Below, piece after piece: positions 10,111-61,980 of a stretch of 64,000 bases of DNA (position 1 is the first letter of the stretch; each line of letters opens with the position of its first letter). The notes beneath the pieces are model-generated. The model saw only the letters and a list, made by a program, of their open reading frames with translations, had not been told where the DNA came from and made no database searches. Source of the DNA: Spirochaetia bacterium. GTDB taxonomy: Bacteria; Spirochaetota; Spirochaetia; SZUA-6; Bin103. The DNA is taken from contig CBDBOV010000006.1 of assembly GCA_965208575.1 (NCBI GenBank), positions 608,001 to 672,000 on the forward strand, written 5' to 3'. A program made the position numbers and the translations under genes.

Positions 10111-10320
10111 CGCCCCGGGATGCGGCCGCTGATAAACGATCTCCGCGCCGGGTTGCCGGGCTCCGATGCCCCCGACGCACCGGTGAAGTCCGACTGGAGC
10201 TTCGACCACGGTTCCTACACGTGGAGGCCGGCGTGAATCATCTGCCTGGACCTCGATTCGCTCCGGCGCGCTTACCCGCCCGCCCTCTATCCGGTACCCT
10301 CGCCGGAACGGAGGTTACGA

Positions 10321-21236: not shown

Positions 21237-21319
21237 CGATCAGATCGCGCGGCCGCGACCGCCGGTCTCGGCACACCTCACGTGGCACTCGGCTGGCCGC
21301 CCGCCCTATCCTATGGTGC

Positions 21320-22912
21320 ATGGGCTCTCCACCGCCAATCGTGTTCATCACCACCGATACGCAGGGGCGCGACATGGTGTCGGCGTACGGACCGGCGCAT
21401 TGGCACCGGCCGGCGGCCGCGGATGGCGGCGGCGCTGCCGGGGTCCAGCTTCCGGCCACGCCCAACATCGACCGGCTGGCGGCACGCGGCACCCTGTTCG
21501 ACACCGGCGTCGCCGCCTCGCCGCTGTGCACGCCGGCGCGCTCCGCCTGGTACACCGGCCTGCCGCCCAACCGCAACGGCGCCGTGTGCAACGACACCGC
21601 CCCCTCGCGCGCCGTGCCGATGCTCGGCGAACTGTTGGCGGAGGACGGCTGGGCGGCGCACCACGTCGGCAAGTGGCACCTGGACGCGGCCGGCTATGCC
21701 GGCGCCGGGCGCGCCGACGGCGGCTTCGCGAACGACACCTGGTACGACCTGAGCCGGTTCTACGACGAGGTGGGCCGCGGCGGCGCCAACCGCTTCGGCG
21801 GCTGGCTGCGCGGGCTGGAGGACGAGCGCTTCTGCTTCGCGCACCGCGTGGTGGACCGCGCCATCGGCGTACTGCGCGCCCGCGACCCCGCCGCACCGCT
21901 GTTCCTGGCCGTGGAGTTGGACGAGCCGCACGGCCCGTACATCTGCCCGCCGCCGTTCCAGGGCCGCTACGAGCAGGACCGCCTGCCCCGCCCCGCTTCG
22001 TTCCCGGCCTGCCCCGGCGACAAGCCGCGCCTGCAGCGGGACTACGCCGCCTGGCTGGCGGCCTCCCGCGCCGCGCCCGACCAGTACCCCGCCTACTACC
22101 ACAAGTACTACGACTGCAACAGCTACGCCGACTACGAGATCGGCCGCCTGCTCGACGCGGTCGACCGCCACTGCCCCGACGCCCTGCTCATCTACACCGC
22201 CGACCACGGTGACCACCTCGGCGCCTTCGGCCTGTGCGCCAAGGGCCCAACCATGTACGACCACACCGTGGCCGTGCCCCTGGTGGTTGCCGGCCCCGGC
22301 CTGCCAGCCGGCGAGCGCAGCGAGTGCCTGACCAGCAGCCTCGACGTGTGGGCCACGATCATGGACGCGGCAAACCCGGAAGGCGAGCTGGGCAACGGGA
22401 CCGGCCACCGCCCGGCAGCGCCAACGCGATCACCCCGTACCGGCGGAGCCGACGGCGGCCCCTTTCCGCGCAGCGCCGGCTACACCGGCCGGTCGCTCCT
22501 GCCGTTGCTGCGCGGCGAACGCACCGCCGCCGAGCACCGCAGCACCGCATTCAGCGAGTACCACCGCTTCGGGATCGGCCAGCACCGGGCCGGCGGCTGC
22601 TACCCGATCCGCTGCGTGCGCACCGCCGACTGGAAGCTGGCGATCAACCTCCTCGACCGCGACGAGCTCTACGACCTGCGCCACGACCCCGGCGAGACCG
22701 CGAACCTGATCACCGACCACCAACACGCCGCCGTGCGCAACGAGCTGCACGACCTGCTGCTCGCCCACATGGACGAGACCGGCGACCTGCTCGCCGGCCC
22801 CGGCTGGGCGCGGCGGCCCTGGCGCGGCCCCGCCGCCGAGCGCCCCTTCGAAGGCTACTTCACCACCGGCTACCACGACCGCTGGCCCTCCGGCTCGTTC
22901 TTCACCTGGTAA
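21320..22912 (+). CDS. Cys-type sulfatase (YidJ-like)
   Basis: TTDTQ, CTPAR, GKWH, DHG, ELYDL..DPGE motifs. Confidence 0.92.
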   Translation: MGSPPPIVFITTDTQGRDMVSAYGPAHWHRPAAADGGGAAGVQLPATPNIDRLAARGTLFDTGVAASPLCTPARSAWYTGLPPNRNGAVCNDTAPSRAVPMLGELLAEDGWAAHHVGKWHLDAAGYAGAGRADGGFANDTWYDLSRFYDEVGRGGANRFGGWLRGLEDERFCFAHRVVDRAIGVLRARDPAAPLFLAVELDEPHGPYICPPPFQGRYEQDRLPRPASFPACPGDKPRLQRDYAAWLAASRAAPDQYPAYYHKYYDCNSYADYEIGRLLDAVDRHCPDALLIYTADHGDHLGAFGLCAKGPTMYDHTVAVPLVVAGPGLPAGERSECLTSSLDVWATIMDAANPEGELGNGTGHRPAAPTRSPRTGGADGGPFPRSAGYTGRSLLPLLRGERTAAEHRSTAFSEYHRFGIGQHRAGGCYPIRCVRTADWKLAINLLDRDELYDLRHDPGETANLITDHQHAAVRNELHDLLLAHMDETGDLLAGPGWARRPWRGPAAERPFEGYFTTGYHDRWPSGSFFTW

Positions 22913-23116
22913 CCGCGCCCGCCCGCCTGCATCGGCGGACAACGAGGCCGCGCCGCGCTTACCCGCCCACCCACTTCCGGTATGCGGCCGGTGGCGAACA
23001 GCCCGAACCCCTGCTGCGCCTTGGCCAGCGCGGAGCTTGCTTGCTGGTTCACAACAGTCGATTGCTCGACAACCTATCGCTGGACGGATGCACCACGCCT
23101 GCTTAGAATCTCCACG

Positions 23117-23800
23117 ATGACGGACATTCACGGCGGCATGCACCCCGCTGAAGTCCCCACATACACACCAACCGAGGTCGCGCGGATCATCGGGCGCCCG
23201 GTATCGACAGTGCGATCCTGGACGCGCGGCGCACGCTACATGACCAACGCCGGAAAGCAGTTCTGGCCACCCGTCGTGCCTGCCGACCCACCGTACCTGT
23301 CGTTTCAGAACCTGGTCGAGTTGTATGTGCTTTCCTCGCTGCGCAGCTTCCACGCCGTACGCCTTAGTAGAATCCGGATCGCTATCGACTATCTCCGAAA
23401 GGTCGAAGGAACCACTCATCCGCTCGCTGACTATCGTCTCCTTACTGACCGATCGGACGTGTTTGTTGAGACGGCGGGCGAGTATCTCAACCTCAGCCGA
23501 GACGGCCAACTCGAAATGAAGGCGCAACTGCTCAAGTGCATGAAGCAGGTGGAAAGAGGAATAGACGGATTCCCCAACAAACTGTGGCTTCTGGATTCCA
23601 CGAACAACAGGGCGGCGGAAGTAGATCCGGAGATCAGGTTCGGGCAACCGCGAATCCCCGGCACCGGCATCCCCACTGCGATCATCTACCAACGCAAGCG
23701 CGCCGGTGAAACGGCAGAGCAGCTCGCCGCAGCGTACGAACGGCCCGTGGTCGAAGTAGCCAGGGCGATCAGTTACGAGGAATCGAGCCGCGCTGCGTGA
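23117..23800 (+). CDS. HTH + DUF433 antitoxin (VapB45-like)
   Basis: YTPTEVARIIG, LSFQNLVE, DPEIRFGQPRIPGTGIP. Confidence 0.85.
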   Translation: MTDIHGGMHPAEVPTYTPTEVARIIGRPVSTVRSWTRGARYMTNAGKQFWPPVVPADPPYLSFQNLVELYVLSSLRSFHAVRLSRIRIAIDYLRKVEGTTHPLADYRLLTDRSDVFVETAGEYLNLSRDGQLEMKAQLLKCMKQVERGIDGFPNKLWLLDSTNNRAAEVDPEIRFGQPRIPGTGIPTAIIYQRKRAGETAEQLAAAYERPVVEVARAISYEESSRAA

Positions 23801-24246
23801 AGCCGCTCACTTTCTATGTGGATGAGACATACGGACGCGGCCTCGTCGGCTTGCTCCAGGGGATCAGTCTGCACGCAGTCACCTACCGCGACGCAGATGA
23901 CATCAATGCTGGTGATCCCGACGTAGCCTGGATACCCAGTGTCGCGAGACGCGAGTGGATTGCGGTATCCTCCGACAAGAGACTCCGGTCCAGGCGTGCA
24001 GAGAGGCAGGCAATACAGACTGCGCGGCTACGGCTCATCGTGATCGCCGCTCGCAACGCGACCGAGGAAGAAACCGCCAGCATAATCAACAAGCACCGCA
24101 GATCGATTCTTGCTCTCGTGCACTACATGCCACCGCCTTTCATTATCTCTCTCACTGGCCAGAAGCTTGAGTTTGAGTGGCTTGGGCCCGAGGATGAGTT
24201 AGCAAAAACCGCCACTACGGCGTGTCCAACTTCTCCCCGGCGATGA
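23797..24246 (+). CDS. VapC45-like PIN toxin, extreme C-terminus replaced by AKR fragment
   Basis: FYVDE, DVAWIP, SSDKRLR; GTGA coupling. Confidence 0.8.
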   Translation: MKPLTFYVDETYGRGLVGLLQGISLHAVTYRDADDINAGDPDVAWIPSVARREWIAVSSDKRLRSRRAERQAIQTARLRLIVIAARNATEEETASIINKHRRSILALVHYMPPPFIISLTGQKLEFEWLGPEDELAKTATTACPTSPRR

Positions 24247-24330
24247 TGGACGTGTGCGAGAGCGCCGGCCACCTGGCCGCCAACCAGGTCGGCTAGCACC
24301 TGTTCGACCGTCGCGTGGAACGGGCCGTGC
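24209..24330 (+). pseudogene. Internal fragment of a third aldo/keto reductase allele
   Basis: Near-identical to 10764-10885 and 27313-27434, with frameshift and TAC>TAG. Confidence 0.9.
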
Positions 24331-25170
24331 CTCCGCCAACTGGAAGGCCTCAAGCAGAAAATTATCCGGGAGCAAAAGCGACACGGTGCCCAGCCTACCG
24401 ATCAGCGGTCCGCTACCGATCGACAGCTGGACTACATCGAGAGCCTGCTGGATTCGACAGGCACGACCCTGAGCGCCGCCACCAGGGCCCTGCTGGGCCG
24501 TTCGGTCAGCATCGACCGTCTGTCGCTCGACGAAGCCTCCGACCTGATCGACCATCTGAAAGAGATCTCGGGGGAGAGCCAGGGTGGAACCACTACTCGC
24601 CACCGAGCAACTCCTCGTGGACGCAAGCCAGGCATCGCGGAACTACGCCCGCTGCTGAACCGCCCTGACGTGCTGGTGGTGGACGTGGAGACGACCGGCT
24701 TCGGCGACCGTGCCGAGGTGCTGGCGGTCGCGGTGGTCGACGCCACCGGGCGGGTCCGGCTCGACACCGTCAGCATGCCGCAGGGGCGAATTCCAAGTGA
24801 CGCGAGCAACGTGCACGGTCTGACCCGCACCCGCCTGCGCAGCATGGGAGCGCGACCCTGGCCGGAGGTGCATCGCGAGCTGGAGAAGCTGCTCGGCGAT
24901 GCCAGCGTCCTCGTGGCCTGGAATGTCGAATTTGACCGCCGCCTGCTGCACCAGACCGCCAAGCGCCACGACTTGACGCTGCCGGTCCGGCCTTGGCACT
25001 GCGCCATGGAGGCGGAGACCACCACGCGCGGACCGGATGCTCCGTACGCGAAGCTGTCCGACACCGCCCGTCGCCTTGGCGTGTCGTCGTCCGGCGCACA
25101 CAGCGCCCTGGGGGACGCCCGCGCCACGCTCGCCGTCGTGCGCGCCCTGGTGGGGGACGTCTCCGCGTGA
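24331..25170 (+). CDS. DEDDh 3'-5' exonuclease, N-terminally truncated (frame open from about 24331)
   Basis: DVETTG, WNVEFD, HSALGD; upstream in-frame SATDRQLDYIESLL segment. Confidence 0.75.
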   Translation, partial: LRQLEGLKQKIIREQKRHGAQPTDQRSATDRQLDYIESLLDSTGTTLSAATRALLGRSVSIDRLSLDEASDLIDHLKEISGESQGGTTTRHRATPRGRKPGIAELRPLLNRPDVLVVDVETTGFGDRAEVLAVAVVDATGRVRLDTVSMPQGRIPSDASNVHGLTRTRLRSMGARPWPEVHRELEKLLGDASVLVAWNVEFDRRLLHQTAKRHDLTLPVRPWHCAMEAETTTRGPDAPYAKLSDTARRLGVSSSGAHSALGDARATLAVVRALVGDVSA

Positions 25171-25457
25171 CCGACCGGTACGCCGCGCTGAATGACGAGA
25201 TTGACCGCCTGCGCGGAGATCCCGACTTCGAGCGGGACGTTGCCGAGACGGCTCGTGCCTTCGGACCGCCTCCCGGTCCCGACGTGGTGGACGATTCCGG
25301 CCACTTCACGGCGCAACGTGTCGACGACCTGCTGGCAGACGGCAAGCTCCGCGAGGCCGCCGTACTGACGGCCGGCAAGCAACTCGCCGACTCCTGGCCA
25401 CGGCAGAAGCGCCGGCCCGTTGACGAACATTCTGAACACGAACACCCCGGCAGTTGA
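25167..25457 (+). CDS. Hypothetical protein
   Basis: GTGA-coupled to exonuclease; MTDRYAALNDEIDRLR... Confidence 0.5.
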   Translation: MTDRYAALNDEIDRLRGDPDFERDVAETARAFGPPPGPDVVDDSGHFTAQRVDDLLADGKLREAAVLTAGKQLADSWPRQKRRPVDEHSEHEHPGS

Positions 25458-25512
25458 CGAGGGTGATCCAGCCGCCACGCGTCGGCAGCCCGCACTTCGT
25501 ATACTGGCGGCC

Positions 25513-25915
25513 ATGAGCAGTGCGCGGACGATTGTGTTCATCACCACCGACACGCAGGGGCGCGACATGGTGTCGGCGTACGGACCGGCGCATTGGCATC
25601 GACCGGCGGCTGCTATCCGATCCGCTGCGTGCGGACCGCCGACTGGAAACTGGCGATCAACCTGCTCGACCGCGACGAGCTGTACGACCTGCGCAGCGAC
25701 CCTGGCGAGACCGTGAACCTGATCGCCGACCACCAACACGCCGCCGTGCGCAACGAGCTGCACGACCTGCTGCTCGCCCACATGGACGAGACCGGCGACC
25801 TGCTCGCTGGGCGCGGCGGCCCTGGCGCGGACCCGCCGCCGAACGCCCCTTCGCGGGCTATTTCACCACCGGCTAGCACGACCGCTGGCCGTCCGGCTGG
25901 TTCTTCACCTGGTAG
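25513..25915 (+). pseudogene. Internally deleted second sulfatase allele
   Basis: 5' end homologous to 21320-21418 fused to 3' end homologous to 22590-22912. Confidence 0.9.
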
Positions 25916-26009
25916 CGCGGCGAACGCGAACAACCGCTTCATCGTGCTTGGCCACCATCCTGCGCGTGCTGGTGAGGGTGGGCGGCGGCTCCGCCGGCAG
26001 GCGCCGTAC

Positions 26010-26049
26010 TTGACGAATACGTAGAGAATCGGAAAGAATCTTACGTATC
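26010..26049 (+). promoter_or_regulatory. TA promoter/operator
   Basis: TTGACG and inverted repeat ATACGTA...TACGTAT just before ATG. Confidence 0.5.
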
Positions 26050-26328
26050 ATGTCGGTCAACACGAAACTCACGTTGAGTGTCGATGCCGCGGTCATCCGG
26101 CGGGCCAAGGCGTTCGCGAGACAGCGCAGCAAAAGCCTCTCGAGGCTGGTCGAGGAGTATCTGCGGTTCGTCAGCGCCGAGTCCGAGCATACGCCCCCGA
26201 TCAGCAATCGCGTCCTGACCGTGGCAGACTCGCTCGACCTGCCGCCCGGGGCCACCTACGACAACCTGAAGGAGCAGTACCTGCGGGACAAGCTGCTCGG
26301 AGGGGAACGTGCGCAGGATACTGATTGA
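26050..26328 (+). CDS. DUF6364-type RHH antitoxin
   Basis: TKLTLSVDAAVIRRAKAFARQRSKSLSRLVEEYL. Confidence 0.85.
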   Translation: MSVNTKLTLSVDAAVIRRAKAFARQRSKSLSRLVEEYLRFVSAESEHTPPISNRVLTVADSLDLPPGATYDNLKEQYLRDKLLGGERAQDTD

Positions 26329-26779
26329 TTCCGACGTCATTCTCGATCTGTTCGTCGCGCGCGAGCCGCATCACACGATCGCGCTGCACTTTTTCACCTA
26401 CCTCGAAGTCGACAGCGGCGGCATCGCCGCCACGGCCTCACCGGTGGCCCTGGCGAACGTCGCCTACGTCCTGGCCAAGCTGAAGGACAAGGCCTATGCG
26501 GTGGGCAAGCTGCGCGAACTCCGCACTCTGATCGGAGTGTCCCCGATCGACCAATCAGCCGTGGACCGTGCCCTGGCCCGCCCGCATCGAGATTTCGAGG
26601 ACGCGCTGCAGCGGGAGTGCGCGCTGGACAACGAGATCGGTATCCTCGTGACCCGAAACACGCGCGATCATCCCAAGGACACGATCCTGATCCTGACCCC
26701 GGTCGACGTCATGCGCCTCCACTCCACCGAGCAGGCCCGGCAACAGCTATCCAGACCAGTGGATCGGTGTCCGCCATAG
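26309..26779 (+). CDS. PIN-domain (VapC) toxin
   Basis: ILIDSDVILD, DFEDA, VTRNTRD. Confidence 0.88.
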   Translation: MRRILIDSDVILDLFVAREPHHTIALHFFTYLEVDSGGIAATASPVALANVAYVLAKLKDKAYAVGKLRELRTLIGVSPIDQSAVDRALARPHRDFEDALQRECALDNEIGILVTRNTRDHPKDTILILTPVDVMRLHSTEQARQQLSRPVDRCPP

Positions 26780-26869
26780 CCCGCGTGTGCATCGCGCAAA
26801 CGAGGCTTCCGGCGCGCTTACCCGCCCGCACTCTTTCCGGTATTCTGCACGCCGCAACGGAGGCTACCG

Positions 26870-27877
26870 ATGGAACAACGCAGCTTTGGGGACAGCGGTC
26901 TGACCTGTTCCGCGCTCGGGTTCGGCACCTGGGAGCTGAGCACCACCGATTATGGCGAGATCGACGCGGCCGAGGCGCAGCGGGCGGCCCAGGAGGCGAT
27001 CGAGCACGGCATCACCCTGTTCGACACCGCCGAGTCATACGGGCCGTACATCTCGGAGGAGCTGCTCGGCAAGGCCCTCGGCACGCGGCGCAAGGAGATC
27101 GTCCTGGTGACCAAGGTCGGGTTCAGGTATGACGGCAACCGGCTGGTGAACCAGTGCTCATCGTTCGATCACGTGGTCACCGCCGCCGAAGGCTGCCTGC
27201 GGCGCCTCGGCACCGACTGGGTCGACCTGCTGCTGATCCACTGGCCCGATCACAACACGCCGTACGGGGAGCCGATCGCGGCCCTGGAGAAACTCAAGCA
27301 GGACGGCAAGATCCGCCACTACGGCGTGTCCAATTTCTCACCCGCGATGATGGACGTGTGCGAGAGCACCGGTGACCTCGCCGCCAACCAGGTGGGCTAC
27401 CACCTGTTCGACCGCCGAGTGGAACGCGCCGTGCTGCCCTACACGCGCTCCCACGGCATCGGCTTCATGGCCTACGGCACCCTCGGCTTCGGCCTGCTGA
27501 CCGGCGCGTTCAACGAGTCCACCACCTTCGTGGACTGGGACTGGCGCTCCAAGGGCTACGCCTTCGGCCTGCCCCTGTTCCAGCGCGCGCAGTTCCTGAA
27601 GCAACTGCGGGTGGTCGAACGGCTGCGGCCAATCGCCGCCCGCCACGGCAAGTCCGTCGCCCAACTCGCCATCTCCTGGGTGCTCGGCAACCCCGCGGTC
27701 ACGGTGGCGCTGGTCGGCATCCGCCGCACCGAGGAACTGAAAGAGAACGTCGCCGCCGTCGAGTGGCGCCTGTCCCCCGACGAACGCCAGGAGATCGACA
27801 CCATCTTCGCCGAAGAGGGCGTCCCCACCCACACCGAAACCTCCCAAATCACCGAACCCTTCCTCCCCGCCCGCTGA
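26870..27877 (+). CDS. Aldo/keto reductase (copy 2, close paralog of 10321-11328)
   Basis: Same length (335 aa), nearly identical protein. Confidence 0.95.
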   Translation: MEQRSFGDSGLTCSALGFGTWELSTTDYGEIDAAEAQRAAQEAIEHGITLFDTAESYGPYISEELLGKALGTRRKEIVLVTKVGFRYDGNRLVNQCSSFDHVVTAAEGCLRRLGTDWVDLLLIHWPDHNTPYGEPIAALEKLKQDGKIRHYGVSNFSPAMMDVCESTGDLAANQVGYHLFDRRVERAVLPYTRSHGIGFMAYGTLGFGLLTGAFNESTTFVDWDWRSKGYAFGLPLFQRAQFLKQLRVVERLRPIAARHGKSVAQLAISWVLGNPAVTVALVGIRRTEELKENVAAVEWRLSPDERQEIDTIFAEEGVPTHTETSQITEPFLPAR

Positions 27878-28117
27878 CCCGCCGGGAGAGTCTGTTTATC
27901 GCTCCGGCGGCCGACTGAGCGATCATGCCGTTCGTGCAAGCGCGTGCATTCGCGCGCAACTCATAAACAGAGAACGAAAACAAGGCACTCAGGACGCCGG
28001 ACCCTGCCTGCGGGACGGGTGCCCTTTCCTGCGCCAGGTGTACGAGTCGCTTAGCGCGCGGCTCGCTACTTCTGTCGCTAGCCCGGACGCCTGCCGGTGG
28101 AAGAGTCCTTCCAACGT

Positions 28118-28181
28118 GGGTAACTGGGTAATCTACCCTATTTCCCACTTGCCCACCGGGTGAATCGTGTGTTACCCTATT
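28118..28181 (+). promoter_or_regulatory. GGGTAA/TTACCC repeat cluster, putative RHH operator and extended -10
   Basis: GGGTAAC, GGGTAAT, TACCCTA, GTTACCCTA directly upstream of RHH gene. Confidence 0.45.
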
Positions 28182-28184
28182 AGC

Positions 28185-28775
28185 ATGGCCAAGACAGAAC
28201 AAGTTCGGGTGGCATTGGACCCAGACGAGCGCTACCGGCTCGACAGGTACGCACGCCGAATGTCAATCAGCCAATCGGAGGCGGTGCGCATTGCCCTGTC
28301 CATGCTGTTCAAGGCTGAGGACGAGTCCGAGTTCCGGCGTCGTCGCTGTCACCGCGAATGGCTGATCGACGCGATCAACCCGACCGACGAGCAACAGAAG
28401 TTGCTCATGGGCGAGTTGCCGATGCCGCCGGAGCCGCCGCACGAAATGCGGTTGGAGCTGGATCGTGACGAGTTGCGCTTCATCATCAAGCAGACGCGGG
28501 CCAACATGGCGGAGCACCCGGAATACCGACGGCCTGACCTGGAGCAGCGGATTGAAACGGCGCAGAATCTTGTAGCAGAAGCGGAAGCGCTGCTTGCCAT
28601 GCGCCAGGCGGATACCACGGGCTACCTGGCGAGCCTCGACACTCCGAGGGAGCCGGGCGTTGTCCATGAATTGCACGCCTTACCCGTGCCGGCAGGCGCG
28701 GACAAGGCGGCCGGCCTGGACTGGTACCGCCGGGTTACGTTGGTTCGCAATAGCCTGGATCTGCTGGAATCATGA
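28185..28775 (+). CDS. Hypothetical protein with N-terminal CopG/RHH domain
   Basis: VRVALDPDERYRLDRYARRMSISQSEAVRIAL. Confidence 0.65.
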   Translation: MAKTEQVRVALDPDERYRLDRYARRMSISQSEAVRIALSMLFKAEDESEFRRRRCHREWLIDAINPTDEQQKLLMGELPMPPEPPHEMRLELDRDELRFIIKQTRANMAEHPEYRRPDLEQRIETAQNLVAEAEALLAMRQADTTGYLASLDTPREPGVVHELHALPVPAGADKAAGLDWYRRVTLVRNSLDLLES

Positions 28776-28865
28776 TGTCGCGCCTTGATCGACATCCTCA
28801 AGAGCTATCCCACCGGCCCCTGGGCCGGCGCAGTCATGAAAGAAACAAGGGTGAGCTATAGTGTG

Positions 28866-29065
28866 GGCAGAGTTCTGGGTGGAGCGCGAAAGTAGGCCGG
28901 CGCGTCACTGGCGTTACGTTCTGCGAACCCGTTCAAGAGCTTGGCCCCGGGGCGGGTGGCGTAGTCATTGGTGAGGTTGTCAGCCGGCGCGGCCGGGTGG
29001 CGATCATCCCGTTCAGGAGAATACCTGCTACACACGCCTTGGCCGCACCACTCAGTCGTAGCGGA
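28866..29065 (+). ncRNA. Predicted IS110 bridge RNA (limits approximate)
   Basis: TATAGT -10 at 28857; contains TCAAGAG (target match, 28933-28939) and TCAGGAG (donor match, 29013-29019), both preceded by CCCGT. Confidence 0.7.
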
Positions 29066-29071
29066 GGTTTC

Positions 29072-30460
29072 ATGGCACGACGCAGACACAGACGCAAGGG
29101 CAAGGGCAGTCGCACAGCGCAACCAAAGGTGATGCACCCGGACGCTGCCGGCTTGGACATAGGCGCTACCGAGGTGTACGCGGCTGTGCGCCCGGAGCGC
29201 GACCCGGACCCGATCCGGAACTTTGCTACGTTCACCGCGGACCTGCACGCCTTGGCCGACTGGCTCAAGGAATGCGAGGTCACCACGGTGGCGATGGAGT
29301 CCACCGGTGTGTACTGGATTCCGGTGTATCAGATCCTGGAGGCACACGGCTTCGACGTGGTGCTGGTGAATGCGCGTCACGTGCACTCGGTACCCGGTCG
29401 GAAGTCCGACGTGGCCGACTGCGAGTGGTTGCGCTACCTGCACTCGGTGGGATTGCTGCGCGGCTCATTCCGCCCTGCCGACGAGGTGTGTGCACTGCGC
29501 TCGGTGCTGCGCCATCGCGACACCTTGATCAAGATGGCGTCGCGCAGCGTGTTGCACATGCAGAAGGCGTACAGCCAGATGAACGTGCATCTGCACCATG
29601 CCATCTCTGACCTGACGGGGACGACCGGTCTGGCCATTACGGACGCTATCCTGGCGGGTGAGCGGGATCCGGCGCGGTTGGCCGCTCTGGCCGACCGGCG
29701 GATCAAAGCCAGCCGCGAGACCTTGATCAAGGCGCTGCAGGGCGACTGGCGCGCCGAGCACCTGTTGGCGTTGCGGCACGCGCGAGCGACCTATGCCCAC
29801 TACCAACAACTCATCACGGAGTGCGATCAGGAAATCGAAGCCGGCATCCGCGCGTTCGAAGCCAGCAGCGAGCCACCCGGCGCGGTGGGCGACGACCCAC
29901 CGGATGAGGGAATCGATGCGGAGCCCGAGGCGCCAACCGAGTCACCGGCCAAGCGGTTCGACCTGCGCGGCCACCTTACGCACCTGTTCGGCACTGACCT
30001 GACGCTGATTCCCGGCATCGGCGAAAGTACGGCGCTGGTTCTGTTCACCGAACTCGGCCCGGAACTGTCCCGCTTTCCGACCGCACCGCAATTCGCCTCC
30101 TGGCTGCACCTGTGCCCCCACAACCAGATCACCGGCGGCAAGATCATCAGCTCGCACACCGGTCGGGGCACCAATCGGGCCGCCCAGGCGCTGCACTGGG
30201 CGACCCAGTCGTTGTACCGCAGCCCATCGGCCCTGGGCCAGCACTTCCGCCGCATGCGGGCGCGTCTGGGTACTCCCGAAGCGACCACTGCAGTCGCGCA
30301 TAAACTGGCTCGGATCATCTACCATCTGATCACGCATCGCGTGGCCTACGATGACAGCATCCTCGCCGCCGAGGAGCGCCAGGACCGGCGCCGCTTTGAA
30401 CGCCGGCTCCGAAGGCAGGCACACGCACTCGGTTATGAGCTTGTCCCGGAGGCCGCCTGA
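29072..30460 (+). CDS. IS110-family DEDD recombinase
   Basis: GLDIG, MESTGVYW, KSDVAD, IPGIG, LCPHNQITGG, AVAHKL; GGAGG RBS before ATG 29072. Confidence 0.95.
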   Translation: MARRRHRRKGKGSRTAQPKVMHPDAAGLDIGATEVYAAVRPERDPDPIRNFATFTADLHALADWLKECEVTTVAMESTGVYWIPVYQILEAHGFDVVLVNARHVHSVPGRKSDVADCEWLRYLHSVGLLRGSFRPADEVCALRSVLRHRDTLIKMASRSVLHMQKAYSQMNVHLHHAISDLTGTTGLAITDAILAGERDPARLAALADRRIKASRETLIKALQGDWRAEHLLALRHARATYAHYQQLITECDQEIEAGIRAFEASSEPPGAVGDDPPDEGIDAEPEAPTESPAKRFDLRGHLTHLFGTDLTLIPGIGESTALVLFTELGPELSRFPTAPQFASWLHLCPHNQITGGKIISSHTGRGTNRAAQALHWATQSLYRSPSALGQHFRRMRARLGTPEATTAVAHKLARIIYHLITHRVAYDDSILAAEERQDRRRFERRLRRQAHALGYELVPEAA

Positions 30461-30608
30461 TTGTTGTTTCTCAGGAGTGCCGTCATTCCACCGCTGGTCC
30501 GGTCACGACTCTGTATCCCTTTGTTCAGAAGGGCTTCGTCAAGGGTGAGATGATGAGACGCACAAGGTGCTACCCAAATCTCGGCATCACGAATGAGGAG
30601 ATTCTACC

Positions 30609-30803
30609 GTGAGAGTCCTGTTGACCCTGACCGTGTTGGTACTAGCCATAGCCATTCTGTTCCTGCTGTTCCTGGTGGCTCTGCTGTGGCGGCGCCAAGG
30701 CGAGTCGTCAAACAACCGCTTCTTCTTGAAGGTTGAAGCGGGGCCGCATGGCAGTTCCCCACCGTCTGCGCGGGTGACTCGTCTTGAGGAAGAGCAGTCA
30801 TGA
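30609..30803 (+). CDS. Small membrane protein
   Basis: GAGGAG RBS, single long hydrophobic helix. Confidence 0.5.
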   Translation: MRVLLTLTVLVLAIAILFLLFLVALLWRRQGESSNNRFFLKVEAGPHGSSPPSARVTRLEEEQS

Positions 30804-30869
30804 GGGGATCCAGGATTCGATCCGGCTGCCGGTAGGCCCCGTGCCATCCGTTTGATAAATGGGGACAGC

Positions 30870-31151
30870 TTACTGGATGCTGTCAAACTGGATCCGCAGC
30901 CGAGTTTCCGTTGCCCGCGCGACCTTCTCCAGCGTCCGCGTGGACGGTGGTGTGCGACCGCTCTCCAACCGCGCAACCGCCGACTGCGTCGTCTTCATCC
31001 GCGCGGCCAGCTCCGCCTGGGTCAGGCCCGCGCGTGTGCGCGCCTCGATTAGCGCACGTGCCACCTCGTATTCCGGCCCCAGTTGTTCGTACGCCTCGCG
31101 ATAGTCGGGATCTCGGCTCCACTGTTTGTGCAGTTCGGCAAGCTTGCTCAT
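30870..31151 (-). CDS. XRE HTH antitoxin (HigA-like)
   Basis: ARTRAGLTQAELAARMKTTQSAVARLESG. Confidence 0.88.
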   Translation of the reverse strand: MSKLAELHKQWSRDPDYREAYEQLGPEYEVARALIEARTRAGLTQAELAARMKTTQSAVARLESGRTPPSTRTLEKVARATETRLRIQFDSIQ

Positions 31152-31436
31152 TACGATACCTCCCCGGCGCGTCGTAGCGCCACCTCGATCTCTCGCCGCG
31201 GCGTCCCTCCGGTCTTCTTCGCGAACACCCGCACCACCACGACCCTCCGATGCTTCACGGTGACACACAGCGCCCGCGCGATGCCGTGCCGACCGCTGAA
31301 GCGCCTTTTCCAGCGGTCCGGTCAGGTGTCTGACATGCGGCACGCCGACCCGCTCCAGGCCGACCGTCGCGATCAACTCGCCGATGTGAGCAAACCGCAC
31401 GCGCATGTCGGCCGGCAACACGTCGACGTGCCATCA
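31151..31436 (-). pseudogene. HigB/Gp49-like RelE toxin, frameshifted
   Basis: LPADMRVRF...PHVRHL, then GIARALCVT...RVFAKKTGGTPRREIEVALRR in another frame. Confidence 0.75.
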
Positions 31437-31541
31437 CAGGGGCATTAGGGTCATCTATATCAAGCGCTTGACGTATGTGTTGAAGACGAAAAGAGACCGC
31501 TATTCGTACCCACAATCCCCGCGTCTCCAGGGTTAGACAGC

Positions 31542-41663: not shown

Positions 41664-42563
41664 GTGATCCATTATGCCGTGCTCGCTCTAGTCGTGGCTG
41701 CGATGTTGGCTCCGGTGGCTGCGTACTCTGATCATTTGATTCAAGTGGTGGACGAAAGCTGCGGAGTTATCATCGGGCGCGATCAAGCCGATATCGAGGC
41801 GGCCACAACGCTCTGCTCTGTCCTTGAAGATGGACCCAGGTTGGTTCGTATAGTTGCCGACGGGCGGTTCTTGTCCCTAGAAATAGACGAAGATACAGCC
41901 CGCGAAGCGTTGGCGAACAAGCCTTGGTTCAAAAACACAGTGCGTGATTTGATGGCGATTTGGAGAGGGTTGACCCAATCGGAGTCGATCGTTGTTTGGG
42001 TATACTGGACGGACACACTGCTTGCTAAGAGCGGCAAGCCAGCGTATTCAGATGATCTGAATCAAACGGCGGTTGATGGGTGCGGAGTTATCATCGGACG
42101 CGATCAAGCCGATATCGAGGCGGCTACAGCGCTGTGCTCTGTCCTTGAAGGTGGGCCCGGGTTGCTGCGCATAGATGCCGACGGGCGGCTTCTGTCCTTG
42201 GTGTTGGACTGGCCCCTTAGACTCAGCGAGGTTCTACCCTGGGGGTCAGACATAGAGCACCCCTCCGTGGAAGCCTGGGCTCGGAGAGGTAGTGAAGCGT
42301 TCGACACATCCAGGCTTCGGACCAAAGAGAGTGTGCTTGAACTTATGGACCTATGGAAGAGGCTAACCGGAGTTGTGCGTCCGGTCGTTGTTCGGGTGTA
42401 CTCGAAGGGCCAGCTGCGCGACGCATGGGAGGTGCTGGAAGGCAAGCCGGAGGTCTTCGGTCATGGCCACGTTGTGACATTCACTCATGAGTGGATCCAG
42501 CAATACGATCAAGCCCTCCGGGTTTTGGGACTACCAACCCTGCCACCGGTGGTGCCGCGCTGA
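41664..42563 (+). CDS. Hypothetical exported protein with duplicated domain
   Basis: Signal-like start; two copies of CGVIIGRDQADIEAAT.LCSVLE. Confidence 0.65.
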   Translation: MIHYAVLALVVAAMLAPVAAYSDHLIQVVDESCGVIIGRDQADIEAATTLCSVLEDGPRLVRIVADGRFLSLEIDEDTAREALANKPWFKNTVRDLMAIWRGLTQSESIVVWVYWTDTLLAKSGKPAYSDDLNQTAVDGCGVIIGRDQADIEAATALCSVLEGGPGLLRIDADGRLLSLVLDWPLRLSEVLPWGSDIEHPSVEAWARRGSEAFDTSRLRTKESVLELMDLWKRLTGVVRPVVVRVYSKGQLRDAWEVLEGKPEVFGHGHVVTFTHEWIQQYDQALRVLGLPTLPPVVPR

Positions 42564-59326: not shown

Positions 59327-60063
59327 GACTCTGTTGCTTGCTCACTTCCATCATACTGAATCACCGCGAGTGCATCATCCTTCGGCCGGGACAGCTTGCG
59401 TCCGCCGGCCCGCGGTCAACCGGTTGCCTGACGGCGGACGGCGAGGGGCTTGAGTTCGGTGTAGATTTCGGGGGGCGCGGCGAAGCGCAGCCCGGCGTCG
59501 CGGGCGCGGGCGATGAGGTCGGCGATCCACCCGCACTGCGCGGCGAACTCCCGCTTCGTCGCGGTGCCGTGATCGTGACTGCACAGGTTCCAGAACCAGC
59601 CGTTGCGCGCCGTCTCCTCGACCATGGCGAACAGATAGTCCTGGTAGGAGTCGCCGTGTGAGCGATCGTCGAACCGGTCCCAGTAGAAGCGGTCCTGGTA
59701 GCCCTGGATGCCGAGTTCCAGGATCTCGGGAAATCCCTGGTCGCTGAAGAAGAACGGCTGCTCGGAAAACGGCGTCGGCTGGCAGTCGCGGTAGTCGCGC
59801 GCGTTGGTGCGCACCCAGCGGATGCCGTTGTCGCGCAGGATCTGCAGAATGTCCGGGCGGTCCGCCAGCCCGCGGTAGTAGCCCCAGGGCCCGGTCAGCC
59901 CCCGACAGTCCACCCCGAGCAGCTCCCTGATGACGCGCTGCGCCCGCGCGACCTCGGCGCCGATCTGCTCCAGCGTGCCGCCGGCCTTGAAGAAATTGGG
60001 CGCCGCGCCGTGTACCGGCCGGCCGTCGCCGGGCGTCATGTAGACGCTCCTGAGAAACAACAA

Positions 60064-61452
60064 TCAGGCGGCCTCCGGGACAAGCTCATAACCGAGTGCG
60101 TGTGCCTGCCTTCGGAGCCGGCGTTCAAAGCGGCGCCGGTCCTGGCGCTCCTCGGCGGCGAGGATGCTGTCATCGTAGGCCACGCGATGCGTGATCAGAT
60201 GGTAGATGATCCGAGCCAGTTTATGCGCGACTGCAGTGGTCGCTTCGGGAGTACCCAGACGCGCCCGCATGCGGCGGAAGTGCTGGCCCAGGGCCGATGG
60301 GCTGCGGTACAACGACTGGGTCGCCCAGTGCAGCGCCTGGGCGGCCCGATTGGTGCCCCGACCGGTGTGCGAGCTGATGATCTTGCCGCCGGTGATCTGG
60401 TTGTGGGGGCACAGGTGCAGCCAGGAGGCGAATTGCGGTGCGGTCGGAAAGCGGGACAGTTCCGGGCCGAGTTCGGTGAACAGAACCAGCGCCGTACTTT
60501 CGCCGATGCCGGGAATCAGCGTCAGGTCAGTGCCGAACAGGTGCGTAAGGTGGCCGCGCAGGTCGAACCGCTTGGCCGGTGACTCGGTTGGCGCCTCGGG
60601 CTCCGCATCGATTCCCTCATCCGGTGGGTCGTCGCCCACCGCGCCGGGTGGCTCGCTGCTGGCTTCGAACGCGCGGATGCCGGCTTCGATTTCCTGATCG
60701 CACTCCGTGATGAGTTGTTGGTAGTGGGCATAGGTCGCTCGCGCGTGCCGCAACGCCAACAGGTGCTCGGCGCGCCAGTCGCCCTGCAGCGCCTTGATCA
60801 AGGTCTCGCGGCTGGCTTTGATCCGCCGGTCGGCCAGAGCGGCCAACCGCGCCGGATCCCGCTCACCCGCCAGGATAGCGTCCGTAATGGCCAGACCGGT
60901 CGTCCCCGTCAGGTCAGAGATGGCATGGTGCAGATGCACGTTCATCTGGCTGTACGCCTTCTGCATGTGCAACACGCTGCGCGACGCCATCTTGATCAAG
61001 GTGTCGCGATGGCGCAGCACCGAGCGCAGTGCACACACCTCGTCGGCAGGGCGGAATGAGCCGCGCAGCAATCCCACCGAGTGCAGGTAGCGCAACCACT
61101 CGCAGTCGGCCACGTCGGACTTCCGACCGGGTACCGAGTGCACGTGACGCGCATTCACCAGCACCACGTCGAAGCCGTGTGCCTCCAGGATCTGATACAC
61201 CGGAATCCAGTACACACCGGTGGACTCCATCGCCACCGTGGTGACCTCGCATTCCTTGAGCCAGTCGGCCAAGGCGTGCAGGTCCGCGGTGAACGTAGCA
61301 AAGTTCCGGATCGGGTCCGGGTCGCGCTCCGGGCGCACAGCCGCGTACACCTCGGTAGCGCCTATGTCCAAGCCGGCAGCGTCCGGGTGCATCACCTTTG
61401 GTTGCGCTGTGCGACTGCCCTTGCCCTTGCGTCTGTGTCTGCGTCGTGCCAT
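60064..61452 (-). CDS. IS110-family DEDD recombinase (copy 2)
   Basis: Identical protein to copy 1. Confidence 0.95.
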   Translation of the reverse strand: MARRRHRRKGKGSRTAQPKVMHPDAAGLDIGATEVYAAVRPERDPDPIRNFATFTADLHALADWLKECEVTTVAMESTGVYWIPVYQILEAHGFDVVLVNARHVHSVPGRKSDVADCEWLRYLHSVGLLRGSFRPADEVCALRSVLRHRDTLIKMASRSVLHMQKAYSQMNVHLHHAISDLTGTTGLAITDAILAGERDPARLAALADRRIKASRETLIKALQGDWRAEHLLALRHARATYAHYQQLITECDQEIEAGIRAFEASSEPPGAVGDDPPDEGIDAEPEAPTESPAKRFDLRGHLTHLFGTDLTLIPGIGESTALVLFTELGPELSRFPTAPQFASWLHLCPHNQITGGKIISSHTGRGTNRAAQALHWATQSLYRSPSALGQHFRRMRARLGTPEATTAVAHKLARIIYHLITHRVAYDDSILAAEERQDRRRFERRLRRQAHALGYELVPEAA

Positions 61453-61458
61453 GAAACC

Positions 61459-61658
61459 TCCGCTACGACTGAGTGGTGCGGCCAAGGCGTGTGTAGCAGG
61501 TATTCTCCTGAACGGGATGATCGCCACCCGGCCGCGCCGGCTGACAACCTCACCAATGACTACGCCACCCGCCCCGGGGCCAAGCTCTTGAACGGGTTCG
61601 CAGAACGTAACGCCAGTGACGCGCCGGCCTACTTTCGCGCTCCACCCAGAACTCTGCC
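61459..61658 (-). ncRNA. Predicted bridge RNA, copy 2
   Basis: Guide motifs at 61585-61596 and 61505-61516. Confidence 0.7.
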
Positions 61659-61980
61659 CACACTATAGCTCACCCTTGTTTCTTTCATGACTGCGCCGGC
61701 CCAGGGGCCGGTGGGATAGCTCTTGAGCAGCACGTGGCTGTAGGTGTGCTGCGCGACCGTGACCAGGGGACTGTGCATGCAGGTACGGATCGCATCCGTG
61801 CACCGCTCGACCGTCTCGCCGGTGAGGTAGATGGTCCATGGTACGCCGAACCGTTCGTGCAGTTCGGCGGCGCCCTCCAGGAACCCCACCGAATCCTGCG
61901 ACGCCATCTCCACGTCGTACCCGAACAGCATCGTTCCGCTCATGGCCGGGCTGCCGTCGCTGCCGTCGTGCCGGCGCCGG

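What the first reader, a model, noticed from the sequence alone, without database searches (positions are those of the whole stretch)
28797..30477. IS110 bridge-recombination system with target, donor and guides readable from two insertions
Seen: two identical 1673-bp copies (28805-30477 plus; 60047-61719 minus). Reconstructed empty sites are GACATC-CTCAAGAG-TGCCGT and GTGCTG-CTCAAGAG-CGTCTA; the second restores the deacetylase frame HVLLKSVYM. The reconstructed circle junction is GTTT-CTCAGGAG-CTATCC, with crossover inside the shared GAG. The 5' non-coding end carries CCCGTTCAAGAG (28928-28939) and CCCGTTCAGGAG (29008-29019), exactly 80 nt apart, matching target then donor. Established: IS110-group elements such as IS621 encode a bridge RNA in the left end with target- and donor-binding loops in that order. 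Inference: an active, programmable recombinase whose target and donor differ by one base in the octamer and whose two loops look like an internal duplication. I could not identify the right-hand guides with confidence.
Basis: partly seen in the sequence, partly recalled or inferred. Interest (0 to 1): 0.88.

Follow-up and report, generated by a model that had tools for sequence, protein, structure and literature searches.

The report
IS110-family bridge-RNA insertion sequence
This is a recently active, RNA-guided "bridge recombinase" insertion sequence whose guide segments, insertion site and joined ends can all be read from the genome; it is a new example of a known kind of element with a few unusual details.

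Summary
The window has two identical copies, and the genome has 15 at 14 independent sites plus one tandem dimer. All 14 sites carry TCAAGAG on the left; the right flank is not conserved. A same-genus genome keeps the empty site GTGCTG-CTCAAGAG-CGTCTA inside a polysaccharide-deacetylase gene. The dimer shows the predicted end-to-end junction GTTT-CTCAGGAG-CTATCC.

The ORF is an IS110-family recombinase (Pfam PF01548 + PF02371; NCBIfam NF033542). The 267-nt left end encodes a roughly 190-nt RNA with two homologous internal loops, and 72 homologues support its fold by covariation. UUCAAGAG (28932-28939) matches the left target. UUCAGGAG (29012-29019) matches the left donor. Close relatives with other loop heptamers sit at matching sites, for example UGUCAAG at TGTCAAG in 5 of 5 copies.

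Three amendments. [quoted passage not shown] The right-target guide position is identifiable only by homology, and this element's flanks do not match it. The right-donor guide stays unresolved. Thr replaces the IS621 catalytic Ser. No transcript was shown. I rate it a new member of a known kind.

The parts
28798..28804 (+). Left target half-site plus core (TCAAGAG), copy 1. It derives from the target and is not part of the element.
   Evidence: Present at 14 of 14 independent insertion sites. An empty site carrying this heptamer was seen for copy 2.
28805..30477 (+). Element copy 1, 1673 bp, from CTATCC... to ...GTTTCTCAGGAG.
   Evidence: It is one of 15 copies with an identical interior.
28813..28828 (+). 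GC-rich hairpin in the left end (CCGGCCC-CT-GGGCCGG), 9 nt right of the core. Its function is unknown; it may help recognise the right donor half.
   Evidence: Read from the sequence. A palindrome occupies the same place in homologues in the alignments. This was judged by eye and not counted.
28841..28848 (+). Left arm (AGAAACAA) of an inverted repeat whose partner lies in the right end.
   Evidence: The two arms change together in homologues: GGAACA/TGTTCC, GAAACT/AGTTTC, GTAAC/GTTAC, TGAACA/TGTTCA (read).
28857..28862 (+). -10-like hexamer TATAGT, a possible promoter element for the RNA.
   Evidence: The hexamer column is T/G-A-x-x-x-T in the homologue alignment. The tool's sigma-70 scan found no promoter, so this is weak.
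28870..29057 (+). Predicted bridge RNA of about 190 nt; its ends are not mapped. P1 pairs 28875-28885 with 29045-29055. The target loop is closed by P2 (28895-28899 with 28942-28946). The donor domain is closed by P4a (28947-28952 with 29037-29042) and P4b (28956-28958 with 29022-29024).
   Evidence: Alignment of 72 homologues and RNAalifold. In one search, 92.4% of cells are paired against 30.6-48.3% when partners are slid. 25 of 35 pairs show changes on both sides. No shuffle of 500 reached the observed score.
28901..28906 (+). Position homologous to the right-target guide (CGCGUC), on the 5' side of the target loop (loop 28900-28909).
   Evidence: In the 50%-identity homologue group this hexamer is complementary to G plus the right flank: mean 5.68 of 6 pairs in 37 loci against 4.59 in the control. 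In this genome the 14 right flanks do not match it.
28910..28930 (+). P3, the inner hairpin of the target loop.
   Evidence: Helix cols 46-50/72-75 is 100% paired; 3 of its 4 pairs never vary.
28932..28941 (+). Left-target guide UUCAAGAG (28932-28939; the first U can wobble-pair with the G opposite C at -8), followed by the 2-nt extension CU (28940-28941), which matches the first two bases of the left end.
   Evidence: Relatives with other heptamers sit at matching sites. The extension matches the first 2 bases of the left end in 13 of 19 curated homologues. In the 46-locus group it follows base 2 of the left end (G:G 42, A:A 3, of 45 scored).
28959..28969 (+). 5' side of the donor loop (GCGUAGUCAUU), the expected place of a right-donor guide. 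GUAG (28961-28964) could pair with CTAT using one wobble pair.
   Evidence: Pairing with the right donor is not supported across homologues.
28970..29010 (+). P5, the inner hairpin of the donor loop.
   Evidence: helix cols 118-124/159-165 is 99.8% paired, and 5 of 6 pairs show changes on both sides.
29012..29021 (+). Left-donor guide UUCAGGAG (29012-29019) plus the extension AA (29020-29021).
   Evidence: It matches the right-end TCAGGAG. The loop heptamer equals the right-end heptamer in 48 of 50 homologues.
29072..30460 (+). Recombinase gene, 462 aa, with GGAGG upstream of the ATG. D29, E76, D113 and D116 are conserved. Thr354 stands at the position of the IS621 nucleophile Ser241.
30464..30471 (+). 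Right arm (TTGTTTCT) of the inverted repeat.
   Evidence: See the left arm.
30471..30477 (+). Left donor half plus core (TCAGGAG), the last 7 bases of the element.
   Evidence: It abuts CTATCC in the tandem dimer.
60047..61719 (-). Element copy 2, identical to copy 1. It interrupts a polysaccharide-deacetylase gene.
61720..61726 (-). Left target half-site plus core (TCAAGAG) of copy 2.

Best explanation
A recently active insertion sequence of the IS110 family, that is, an RNA-guided 'bridge' recombinase.

Components. The element is 1673 bp. It carries a 462-aa DEDD/Tnp recombinase gene. Upstream, in the 267-nt left end, it encodes a structured RNA of about 190 nt with two homologous internal loops.

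Guides (shown by sequence comparison). The 3' strand of the first loop, G-UUCAAGAG-CU, has the sense of the target's top strand. [quoted passage not shown] Its last two bases match the first bases of the element. The 3' strand of the second loop, G-UUCAGGAG-AA, likewise matches the last bases of the element (left donor plus core).

Reaction (inferred from what is published for IS621). The element's ends are abutted as GTTTCTCAGG-AG-CTATCC. Target and donor are exchanged at the shared AG, which reads CT on the other strand. This places the element immediately right of TCAAGAG in one orientation.

Site choice (shown). In this element it rests on the 7-8 nt left half-site plus a non-guide context further left (T-15, A-13, T-11, C-8). 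The right flank is free.

Tandem dimers (inferred). Because the right flank is free, the left junction of a resident copy remains a valid target, which would explain the dimers.
For: Protein:
- Pfam PF01548 6.4e-20 and PF02371 1.5e-11.
- NCBIfam NF033542 'IS110 family RNA-guided transposase', 251 bits against a cut-off of 140.
- D29, E76, D113 and D116 are invariant in 76 of 76 family proteins.

Mobility and target:
- 15 copies with an identical interior.
- TCAAGAG at 14 of 14 sites.
- An empty site in G006.
- The abutted-ends junction is present as DNA in the C4 dimer. RE-LE junctions also occur in relatives (L190 and L192; L107 and L133).

RNA structure:
- 92.4% of cells paired against 30.6-48.3% in slid controls; 25 of 35 pairs carry double changes; 0 of 500 shuffles reach the observed score.

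Guide-to-DNA agreement:
- The donor-loop heptamer equals the right-end heptamer in 48 of 50 homologues, in 7 matched heptamer types. The right end was defined by a rule that does not use the loop.
- Relatives whose boundaries are fixed by multiple copies: UGUCAAG with TGTCAAG in 5 of 5 (G003) and 2 of 2 (G014); GUAAAG in 3 of 4 with GCAAAG in the fourth. Single copies: UGUGAAG with TGTGAAG 1 of 1; G004 TGTCAAG 1 of 1.

Strand sense: it agrees with Durrant 2024, where left guides pair with the bottom strand and include the core.

Upstream context, occupied against unoccupied TCAAGAG sites: C-8 in 11 of 14 against 93 of 317; A-13 in 11 of 14 against 98 of 317; both in 9 of 14 against 39 of 317, Fisher p = 1.6e-5.
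Against: - No transcript was shown. One metatranscriptome assembly gave 3 short contigs on the ORF only, and three raw RNA runs gave 0 reads.
- No sigma-70 promoter or terminator was found by the scan.
- No Rfam family matched.
- The global single-sequence fold is no better than shuffles, z = -0.49.
- The right-target guide position, defined by homology, does not match this element's right flanks. The best complementary run is 3.71 in occupied sites against 3.69 in free sites; in-register pairs are 1.36 against 1.98 of 5.
- No right-donor guide was found.
- The residue aligned to the IS621 nucleophile Ser241 is Thr354.
- In the 50%-identity group the left-guide heptamer matches the left flank only partly: 3-7 of 7, and all 7 in only 5 of 39.
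- For 19 single-copy homologues I located the left junction by its match to the loop. Those matches are not independent evidence.
- The dimer junction is not proof of a free circle.
Confidence: 0.85

Rival explanations
1. The two CCCGTTCA(A/G)GAG boxes act as DNA, not RNA. They would be internal recombinase-binding sites that resemble the ends, or relics of earlier nested insertions. Site choice would be made by the protein.
For: No transcript was shown and no promoter was found. A non-guide sequence context left of the heptamer does influence site choice. A covarying inverted repeat at the DNA level exists in the ends.
Against: The boxes sit in the same internal-loop position of a fold supported by compensatory changes. 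They change together with the flank or right end, both in relatives of 74-81% nucleotide identity and in distant homologues. The internal TCAAGAG of the 15 copies is never itself occupied (one search set these internal copies aside; searches show no nested copy). The published mechanism for the family is RNA-based.
Confidence: 0.05
2. The element is a bridge-recombinase insertion sequence but is now a fossil. The 15 copies would have spread earlier, or by duplication, and Thr354 in place of the catalytic Ser would make the enzyme inactive.
For: Thr stands at the position aligned to IS621 Ser241. No RNA was detected. There is no direct evidence of circles.
Against: All 15 copies are identical over 1665 bp and lie at 14 unrelated sites with exact boundaries. 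A same-genus genome still has an empty site. Related elements with Thr at this position are also multi-copy, for example 5 identical-guide copies in G003 and several in G014. The four acidic residues are intact.
Confidence: 0.07
3. The exchange point is not at AG/GAG but further left in the shared TCA. The natural target would then be TCAGGAG and the abutted ends would read ...TCAAGAG-CTATCC.
For: The two junction octamers share both TCA and GAG, so the window alone cannot tell the two apart.
Against: The empty site in G006 reads CTCAAGAG. The dimer's middle junction reads CTCAGGAG-CTATCC. In homologues, target and donor heptamers share only the final AG.
Confidence: 0.02

Closest known systems
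IS621 (E. coli; IS110 group) and its bridge RNA (Durrant 2024, PMC11208160; Hiraizumi 2024, PMC11208158; passages read)
   Same: - The recombinase has a RuvC-like DEDD domain plus a Tnp domain.
- A long left end encodes the RNA upstream of the gene, and the right end is short.
- The RNA has two internal loops, target loop first and donor loop second.
- The left guides have the sense of the top strand, so they pair with the bottom strand, and they include the core.
- There is a dinucleotide core. Here it reads AG, which is CT on the other strand; IS621's core is CT.
- A short extension next to a guide matches the non-cognate partner, like a handshake guide.
   Different: - The protein is only distantly similar: phmmer E = 1.3e-7, mainly over the C-terminal domain. 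It is 462 aa against a 328-aa chain.
[quoted passage not shown]
- The extension follows the left guide and matches the right donor on the bottom strand. In IS621 the handshake guide follows the right guide and pairs with top-strand positions 6-7.
- The right flank of the target is unconstrained here.
- Thr stands at the Ser241 position.
IS1111-group elements and their seekRNA (Siddiquee 2024, PMC11187229; passages read)
   Same: The order of the two target matches along the RNA is the same: the top-strand complement comes first and the bottom-strand match second. That paper states this order for IS1111 and the reverse order for IS110. There is also a subterminal inverted repeat that covaries.
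   Different: The non-coding region here lies upstream of the recombinase gene, not downstream. The left arm of the inverted repeat lies 36 nt inside the left end rather than about 7 nt. I built no protein tree placing the element relative to IS1111.
ISPpu10 (preprint 10.64898/2026.03.19.712850; abstract and outline seen)
   Same: An IS110-family element whose site choice has a second layer on the 5' side of the guide-matched target.
   Different: There the extra layer is a GC-rich stem-loop in the target. Here it is a short sequence context (T-15, A-13, T-11, C-8) with no evident hairpin.
'Half-match' recombination of IS621 (preprint 10.64898/2026.08.31.748434; abstract seen)
   Same: Recombination in which a substrate matches only part of the bridge RNA.
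   Different: There it describes excision and off-target events of IS621 in vitro. Here a left-half-only match appears to be the normal way natural targets are chosen, which is an inference from 14 sites.

Membership tests
IS110 family (DEDD recombinase insertion sequences) | Recombinase with a DEDD_Tnp_IS110 domain followed by a Transposase_20 domain | tested here: met
   PF01548 6.4e-20 (residues 26-166) and PF02371 1.5e-11 (residues 310-385). NF033542 scores 251 bits against a cut-off of 140.
IS110 family (DEDD recombinase insertion sequences) | Four acidic catalytic residues in the RuvC-like domain | tested here: met
   D29, E76, D113 and D116 are invariant in 76 of 76 aligned family proteins. 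Their equivalence to IS621 D11/E60/D102/D105 rests on the partial alignment and on motif position. It was not confirmed by structure.
IS110 family (DEDD recombinase insertion sequences) | Serine nucleophile in the Tnp domain (Ser241 of IS621) | tested here: inconclusive
   The aligned residue is Thr354. In the family the column holds S in 70 and T in 6 of 76. All 17 close-relative loci scanned have T. Thr keeps a hydroxyl group and the Thr-bearing elements are multi-copy, but activity was not tested.
IS110 family (DEDD recombinase insertion sequences) | No terminal inverted repeats, no target duplication beyond the core, and one fixed orientation at a specific site | tested here: met
   The ends are CTATCC... 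and ...CTCAGGAG. The empty site holds one octamer. All 14 sites have the same orientation relative to TCAAGAG.
IS110 family (DEDD recombinase insertion sequences) | Circular intermediate with abutted ends | tested here: inconclusive
   The abutted-ends junction exists only as a tandem dimer in assembled DNA. No read-level test for free circles was possible.
Bridge RNA of the IS621 type | Structured non-coding RNA in the left end with two internal loops, target loop first | tested here: met
   The fold is supported by covariation. The first loop matches the target and the second matches the donor.
Bridge RNA of the IS621 type | [quoted passage not shown] | tested here: met
   UCAAGAG equals the left flank at 14 of 14 sites. 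The loop heptamer equals the right end in 48 of 50 homologues. Retargeted relatives are shown.
Bridge RNA of the IS621 type | [quoted passage not shown] | tested here: not met
   Here the left guides lie between the inner hairpin and the 3' strand of the closing stem. The right-target guide of homologues lies on the 5' side. Durrant 2024 states the opposite arrangement for IS621.
Bridge RNA of the IS621 type | Right-target guide complementary to core plus right target | tested here: not met
   It is met in the 50%-identity homologue group (5.68 of 6 pairs against 4.59 in the control). For this element, occupied sites score no better than 317 free sites.
Bridge RNA of the IS621 type | Right-donor guide complementary to core plus right donor | tested here: inconclusive
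   No consistent complementary diagonal was found across 23 representatives. The only local candidate is a 4-5-bp one.
Bridge RNA of the IS621 type | The RNA is made and binds the recombinase | not testable with these tools
   RNA runs gave no reads or contigs on the left end.
IS1111 group | Long non-coding region downstream of the recombinase gene | tested here: not met
   There are 267 nt upstream of the gene and 17 nt downstream.
IS1111 group | Subterminal inverted repeats of 7-17 bp close to both ends | tested here: inconclusive
   An 8-bp covarying inverted repeat exists (28841-28848 and 30464-30471). Its left arm lies 36 nt inside the left end.

The most novel reading that the evidence does not exclude
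This clade may be a distinct working variant of bridge recombination. The RNA is encoded upstream, as in IS110-group elements, yet each loop carries its guides in the IS1111-like order. The DNA would then be held in the opposite polarity relative to the genes (core AG on the sense strand, CT on the other). In this reading natural targets are chosen by a single 7-8-nt left guide plus a protein-read or otherwise unexplained context further left, with no right-target pairing. The nucleophile would be a threonine rather than a serine.
Probability: 0.25. Interest if true: 0.6.

Novelty: new member of a known kind. Interest (0 to 1): 0.45.

Why it matters
RNA-guided bridge recombinases are being developed as genome-writing tools, and natural diversity is the source of new properties.

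This element, with its relatives in the same genus and family, offers a compact natural retargeting series. The scaffolds are nearly the same, and four different target heptamers each match a loop heptamer, so the guide rules can be read directly.

If the details hold, three points would bear on engineering and on how the IS110 and IS1111 groups relate: the guide order is inverted relative to IS621, targets are selected from the left half only, and Thr is tolerated at the nucleophile position. As an annotation it is otherwise an ordinary, recently expanded insertion sequence. One copy has disrupted a polysaccharide-deacetylase gene.

Tried and rejected
- Single-sequence fold of 28805-29075. 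MFE is -112.5 kcal/mol with z = -0.49 against shuffles, so it is uninformative. I replaced it with comparative folding.
- Rfam at E up to 1 on 28000-31500: no match.
- Promoter and terminator scan of 28700-30600: none found.
- Empty site for copy 1. The left flank 28200-28796 was searched in 5 same-genus genomes and gave only a 128-nt, 73% match elsewhere. This is not informative.
- Mutual-information scans of RNA columns against flank positions. The first was swamped by the flanks being inside the alignment. The third was swamped by the over-represented 50%-identity group. From I kept only the right-target and extension signals.
- Right-donor guide. I searched for complementary runs in 25 representatives and for diagonals in 23. 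An apparent match about 26 nt after the first loop overlaps helix P4, which is itself supported by covariation, so I dropped it. The GUAG/CTAT match in the donor loop is too short to count.
- A helix 'P2' that I first drew between GGCC (28896-28899) and GGCC (29041-29044) was replaced by the pairing 28895-28899 with 28942-28946 that RNAalifold found and one search supports.
- Expression. Of 24 runs listed I laid 4. The metatranscriptome assembly X16 gave 3 contigs of 105-315 nt on the ORF (0-14 differences) and none on the left end. X21-X23 (raw RNA reads) gave 0 reads, which the tool marks as 'no test'. There is therefore no evidence for or against transcription.
- The Citrobacter plasmid relative was read only at its ends and was not analysed further.
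- Supplementary files and figures of the cited papers were not seen. They may already show this RNA architecture. That applies to Extended Data Fig. 10c and the supplementary data of Durrant 2024, and to the covariance models of preprint 10.64898/2026.10.21.760802 (passages read).
Full report
**1. Observation**

The repeat finder reports one inverted pair, 28797-30486 / 60038-61727. The truly identical part is 28797-30477. It consists of the octamer CTCAAGAG, the element's left end starting CTATCC at 28805, and the right end ...GTTTCTCAGGAG finishing at 30477. The minus copy runs 61719 down to 60047. CCCGTTCAAGAG lies at 28928-28939 and CCCGTTCAGGAG at 29008-29019.

**2. Copies and target**

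The window lies on contig C6 of a 6.5-Mb, 6-contig genome. I laid the genome in the script box and found 15 copies whose 1665-bp interior is identical. They occupy 14 independent sites.

The fifteenth copy forms a head-to-tail dimer on C4.

The logo of the 14 sites shows:
- TCAAGAG invariant (14 of 14);
- C at -8 in 11 of 14;
- A at -13 in 11 of 14;
- T enriched at -15 and -11;
- no conservation to the right (C at +1 in 9 of 14, nothing beyond).

The genome holds 317 further, unoccupied TCAAGAG sites. Against them, occupied sites compare as follows:

| Feature | Occupied | Free | Fisher p |
|---|---|---|---|
| C at -8 | 11 of 14 | 93 of 317 | 3e-4 |
| A at -13 | 11 of 14 | 98 of 317 | 5e-4 |
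| both | 9 of 14 | 39 of 317 | 1.6e-5 |

The heptamer is therefore necessary but not sufficient, and the extra information lies to the left.

**3. Empty site and exchange point**

A same-genus genome (G006) matches both flanks of copy 2 at 97-98% identity. Its sequence is uninterrupted...CACGTGCTG CTCAAGAG CGTCTACATG.... The site sits in a 601-aa ORF with a polysaccharide-deacetylase domain.

Because the empty site carries A at the position where the two junction octamers differ, exchange must occur to the right of it, within GAG. In homologues the target and donor heptamers share only the last two bases (for example CGATAAG against TTGGGAG). The core is therefore most likely AG.

No empty site was found for copy 1.

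**4. The protein**

The 462-aa ORF (29072-30460, GGAGG upstream) has the IS110 domain pair. It passes NCBI's 'IS110 family RNA-guided transposase' model.

It is only distantly related to the solved IS621 recombinase: E = 1.3e-7, mainly over the C-terminal domain.

In an alignment of 76 family proteins, D29, E76, D113 and D116 are invariant. The residue that one search aligns with the IS621 nucleophile is Thr354. That nucleophile is Ser241 according to Hiraizumi 2024 (passages read); my count along the 328-residue chain gives 243, and I assume two extra N-terminal residues in the deposited chain. The column holds Ser in 70 and Thr in 6 of 76. All 17 close-relative loci that I scanned have Thr.

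**5. The RNA**

A fold of the single sequence is uninformative, and Rfam has no match.

I collected relatives from genome contigs (52 loci) and from metagenome contigs (212 found, best 80 kept). Of 132 loci with a protein match, 97 had a near-full ORF and enough upstream sequence. I aligned 72 distinct upstream RNAs.

RNAalifold, refined by hand, gives:
- P1, 28875-28885 with 29045-29055;
- a target loop closed by P2 (28895-28899 with 28942-28946), with inner hairpin P3 (28910-28930);
- a donor domain closed by P4a (28947-28952 with 29037-29042) and P4b (28956-28958 with 29022-29024), with inner hairpin P5 (28970-29010).

On the alignment, 92.4% of cells are paired, against 30.6-48.3% when partners are slid by 1-3 columns. 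25 of 35 pairs show changes on both sides. No shuffle of 500 reaches the observed covariation score. P1 is the weakest helix (about 79% paired), partly because of a one-column offset in some rows, this window's among them.

The two loops are built alike: a 10-11-nt 5' strand ending CAYU, a GG...CCC hairpin, then G plus an 8-nt guide plus two more bases.

**6. Left guides**

Durrant 2024 (passages read) states that left guides pair with the bottom strand and include the core. They therefore read like the top strand, and that is the sense found here.

Donor side. I defined the right end by a rule that ignores the loop (GTTNM plus 7 bases ending AG, after the stop codon). The loop heptamer equals the right-end heptamer in 48 of 50 homologues. 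The matched types are TTGGGAG, TCAGGAG, TTAAGAG, TTAGGAG, TTAGAAG, AAAGAAG and TTGAGAG. The two exceptions differ by one base.

Target side. The cleanest test comes from elements of 74-81% nucleotide identity in the same genus and family. I fetched them with flanks and read them. In most cases their boundaries are fixed by multiple copies.

| Element | Loop heptamer | Left flank | Count |
|---|---|---|---|
| G003, element A | UGUCAAG | TGTCAAG | 5 of 5 |
| G014, element A | UGUCAAG | TGTCAAG | 2 of 2 (a third copy is cut at its 5' end) |
| G004 | UGUCAAG | TGTCAAG | 1 of 1 |
| G003, element B | UGUGAAG | TGTGAAG | 1 of 1 |
| G014, element B | (A)GUAAAG | GTAAAG | 3 of 4; the fourth reads GCAAAG |

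A fifth locus of G014 element B lies in a tandem context and differs. Their right flanks are also unconserved.

In the more distant 50%-identity group the agreement is only partial (3-7 of 7; all 7 in 5 of 39).

For 19 single-copy homologues I placed the left junction by its match to the loop. Their high agreement is not independent evidence.

**7. Extension**

The two bases after the left-target guide (CU, 28940-28941) equal the first two bases of the element (CT). The same holds in 13 of 19 curated homologues. In the 46-locus group the column follows base 2 of the left end (G:G 42, A:A 3, of 45 scored). The 3' strand of the target loop thus matches the finished left junction.

This resembles the handshake guides of IS621. 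It is mirrored, however, because it follows the left guide and concerns the bottom strand of the right donor.

**8. Right guides**

Right-target guide. In the 50%-identity group a hexamer on the 5' strand of the target loop is complementary to G plus the first five bases of the right flank: GCCGAC with TCGGC, GGGGAC with TCCCC, GGCGAC with TCGCC or TCGCT, CGGGAC with TCCCG. The mean is 5.68 of 6 pairs in 37 loci against 4.59 in a control that swaps flanks between guide types. Two tandem cases were left out.

The homologous hexamer here is CGCGUC (28901-28906). The 14 right flanks do not match it better than the 317 free sites do. In this element right-target pairing therefore seems weak or absent.

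Right-donor guide. I could not find one.

**9. Comparison with known systems**

The bottom-strand guide lies on the 3' strand of each loop, and in homologues the top-strand guide lies on the 5' strand. This is the reverse of what Durrant 2024 reports for IS621. It matches the order Siddiquee 2024 reports for IS1111-type elements, where the top-strand complement comes first. Yet the non-coding region here is upstream of the gene, as in the IS110 group.

Read on the other strand the core is CT, the IS621 core. A simple reading, which is an inference, is that the RNA-protein-DNA assembly is the same as in IS621 but the DNA is held in the opposite polarity relative to the genes.

I have not seen the figures or supplements that might already show such an architecture. 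A 2026 preprint says that many bridge-RNA models deviate from IS621. For these reasons I do not claim this as new.

**10. Mechanism in this genome (inferred)**

Because only the left half is read, the left junction of a resident copy (TCAAGAG-CTATCC) stays a valid target. A second insertion there gives exactly the dimer seen: TCAAGAG on the left, CTCAGGAG in the middle and on the right.

Junctions of right end to left end also occur in relatives: L190 and L192, and L107 and L133.

**11. What is missing**

There is no evidence of transcription, no promoter call and no direct evidence of circles.

**12. Verdict**

This is a new member of a known kind. Interest is moderate.

Noticed in passing
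G000 contig C4:1265899-1269251 (outside the window): Head-to-tail dimer of the element. The two copies share one CTCAGGAG octamer. The left flank is TCAAGAG and the middle junction is GTTT-CTCAGGAG-CTATCC. Junctions of right end to left end also occur in relatives (L190, L192, L107, L133).
   Followed up: partly
window 30131-30133 (codon of Thr354; position worked out by me from the ORF start): The residue aligned with the catalytic Ser241 of IS621 is Thr. Among 76 family proteins the column holds Ser in 70 and Thr in 6. All 17 close-relative loci scanned have Thr, including multi-copy elements.
   Followed up: partly
window 28841-28848 and 30464-30471: An 8-bp inverted repeat (AGAAACAA / TTGTTTCT) links the left end, 36 nt in, with the right end. 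Its two arms change together in homologues. It is reminiscent of IS1111 subterminal repeats but is placed asymmetrically.
   Followed up: partly
window 28781-28790, and the equivalent stretch at the other 13 sites: Used TCAAGAG sites carry a context further left (roughly GAT-S-A-S-T..C at -17 to -8) that unused sites mostly lack. Targets of the 50%-identity homologue group show a similar GATYRGTMC. No RNA segment explaining this was found.
   Followed up: partly
window 28813-28828: GC-rich palindrome 9 nt right of the core in the left end. A palindrome occupies the same place in homologues. It might stand in for the missing right-donor guide or insulate the RNA promoter. Neither idea was tested.
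   Followed up: no
L192 (G005:C2:197623-199729): An 81%-identical relative whose target-loop guide (UUCAGGAG) equals this element's donor guide. It sits in a tandem array next to right-end-like sequence.
   Followed up: no
G000 contig C2:51410-51817: A partial, 94-95%-identical right-end fragment of the element lies about 400 bp from a full copy. It is followed by the same flank as that copy, which suggests a local duplication or an older insertion.
   Followed up: no
window 17188-17536; also 10301-10885, 21289-27434 and 41721-42197: A 13-copy array of an 18-nt unit, and several dispersed repeats of 81-94% identity. These are unrelated to the element.
   Followed up: no
L164 (NZ_CP056547.1, Citrobacter plasmid): A 46%-identical relative is found in plasmid records; 61 of the 448 matching records bear a Citrobacter name. 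It has the same layout: the loop reads CCCGUUCAGGAAG and the right end reads GTTTCTCAGGAAAG.
   Followed up: no
window 28700-30580 in public runs: Runs holding at least 41% of the element's sampled words include ones labelled coral reef or sponge metagenome. Only 4 runs were laid, so this is no more than a hint about habitat.
   Followed up: no
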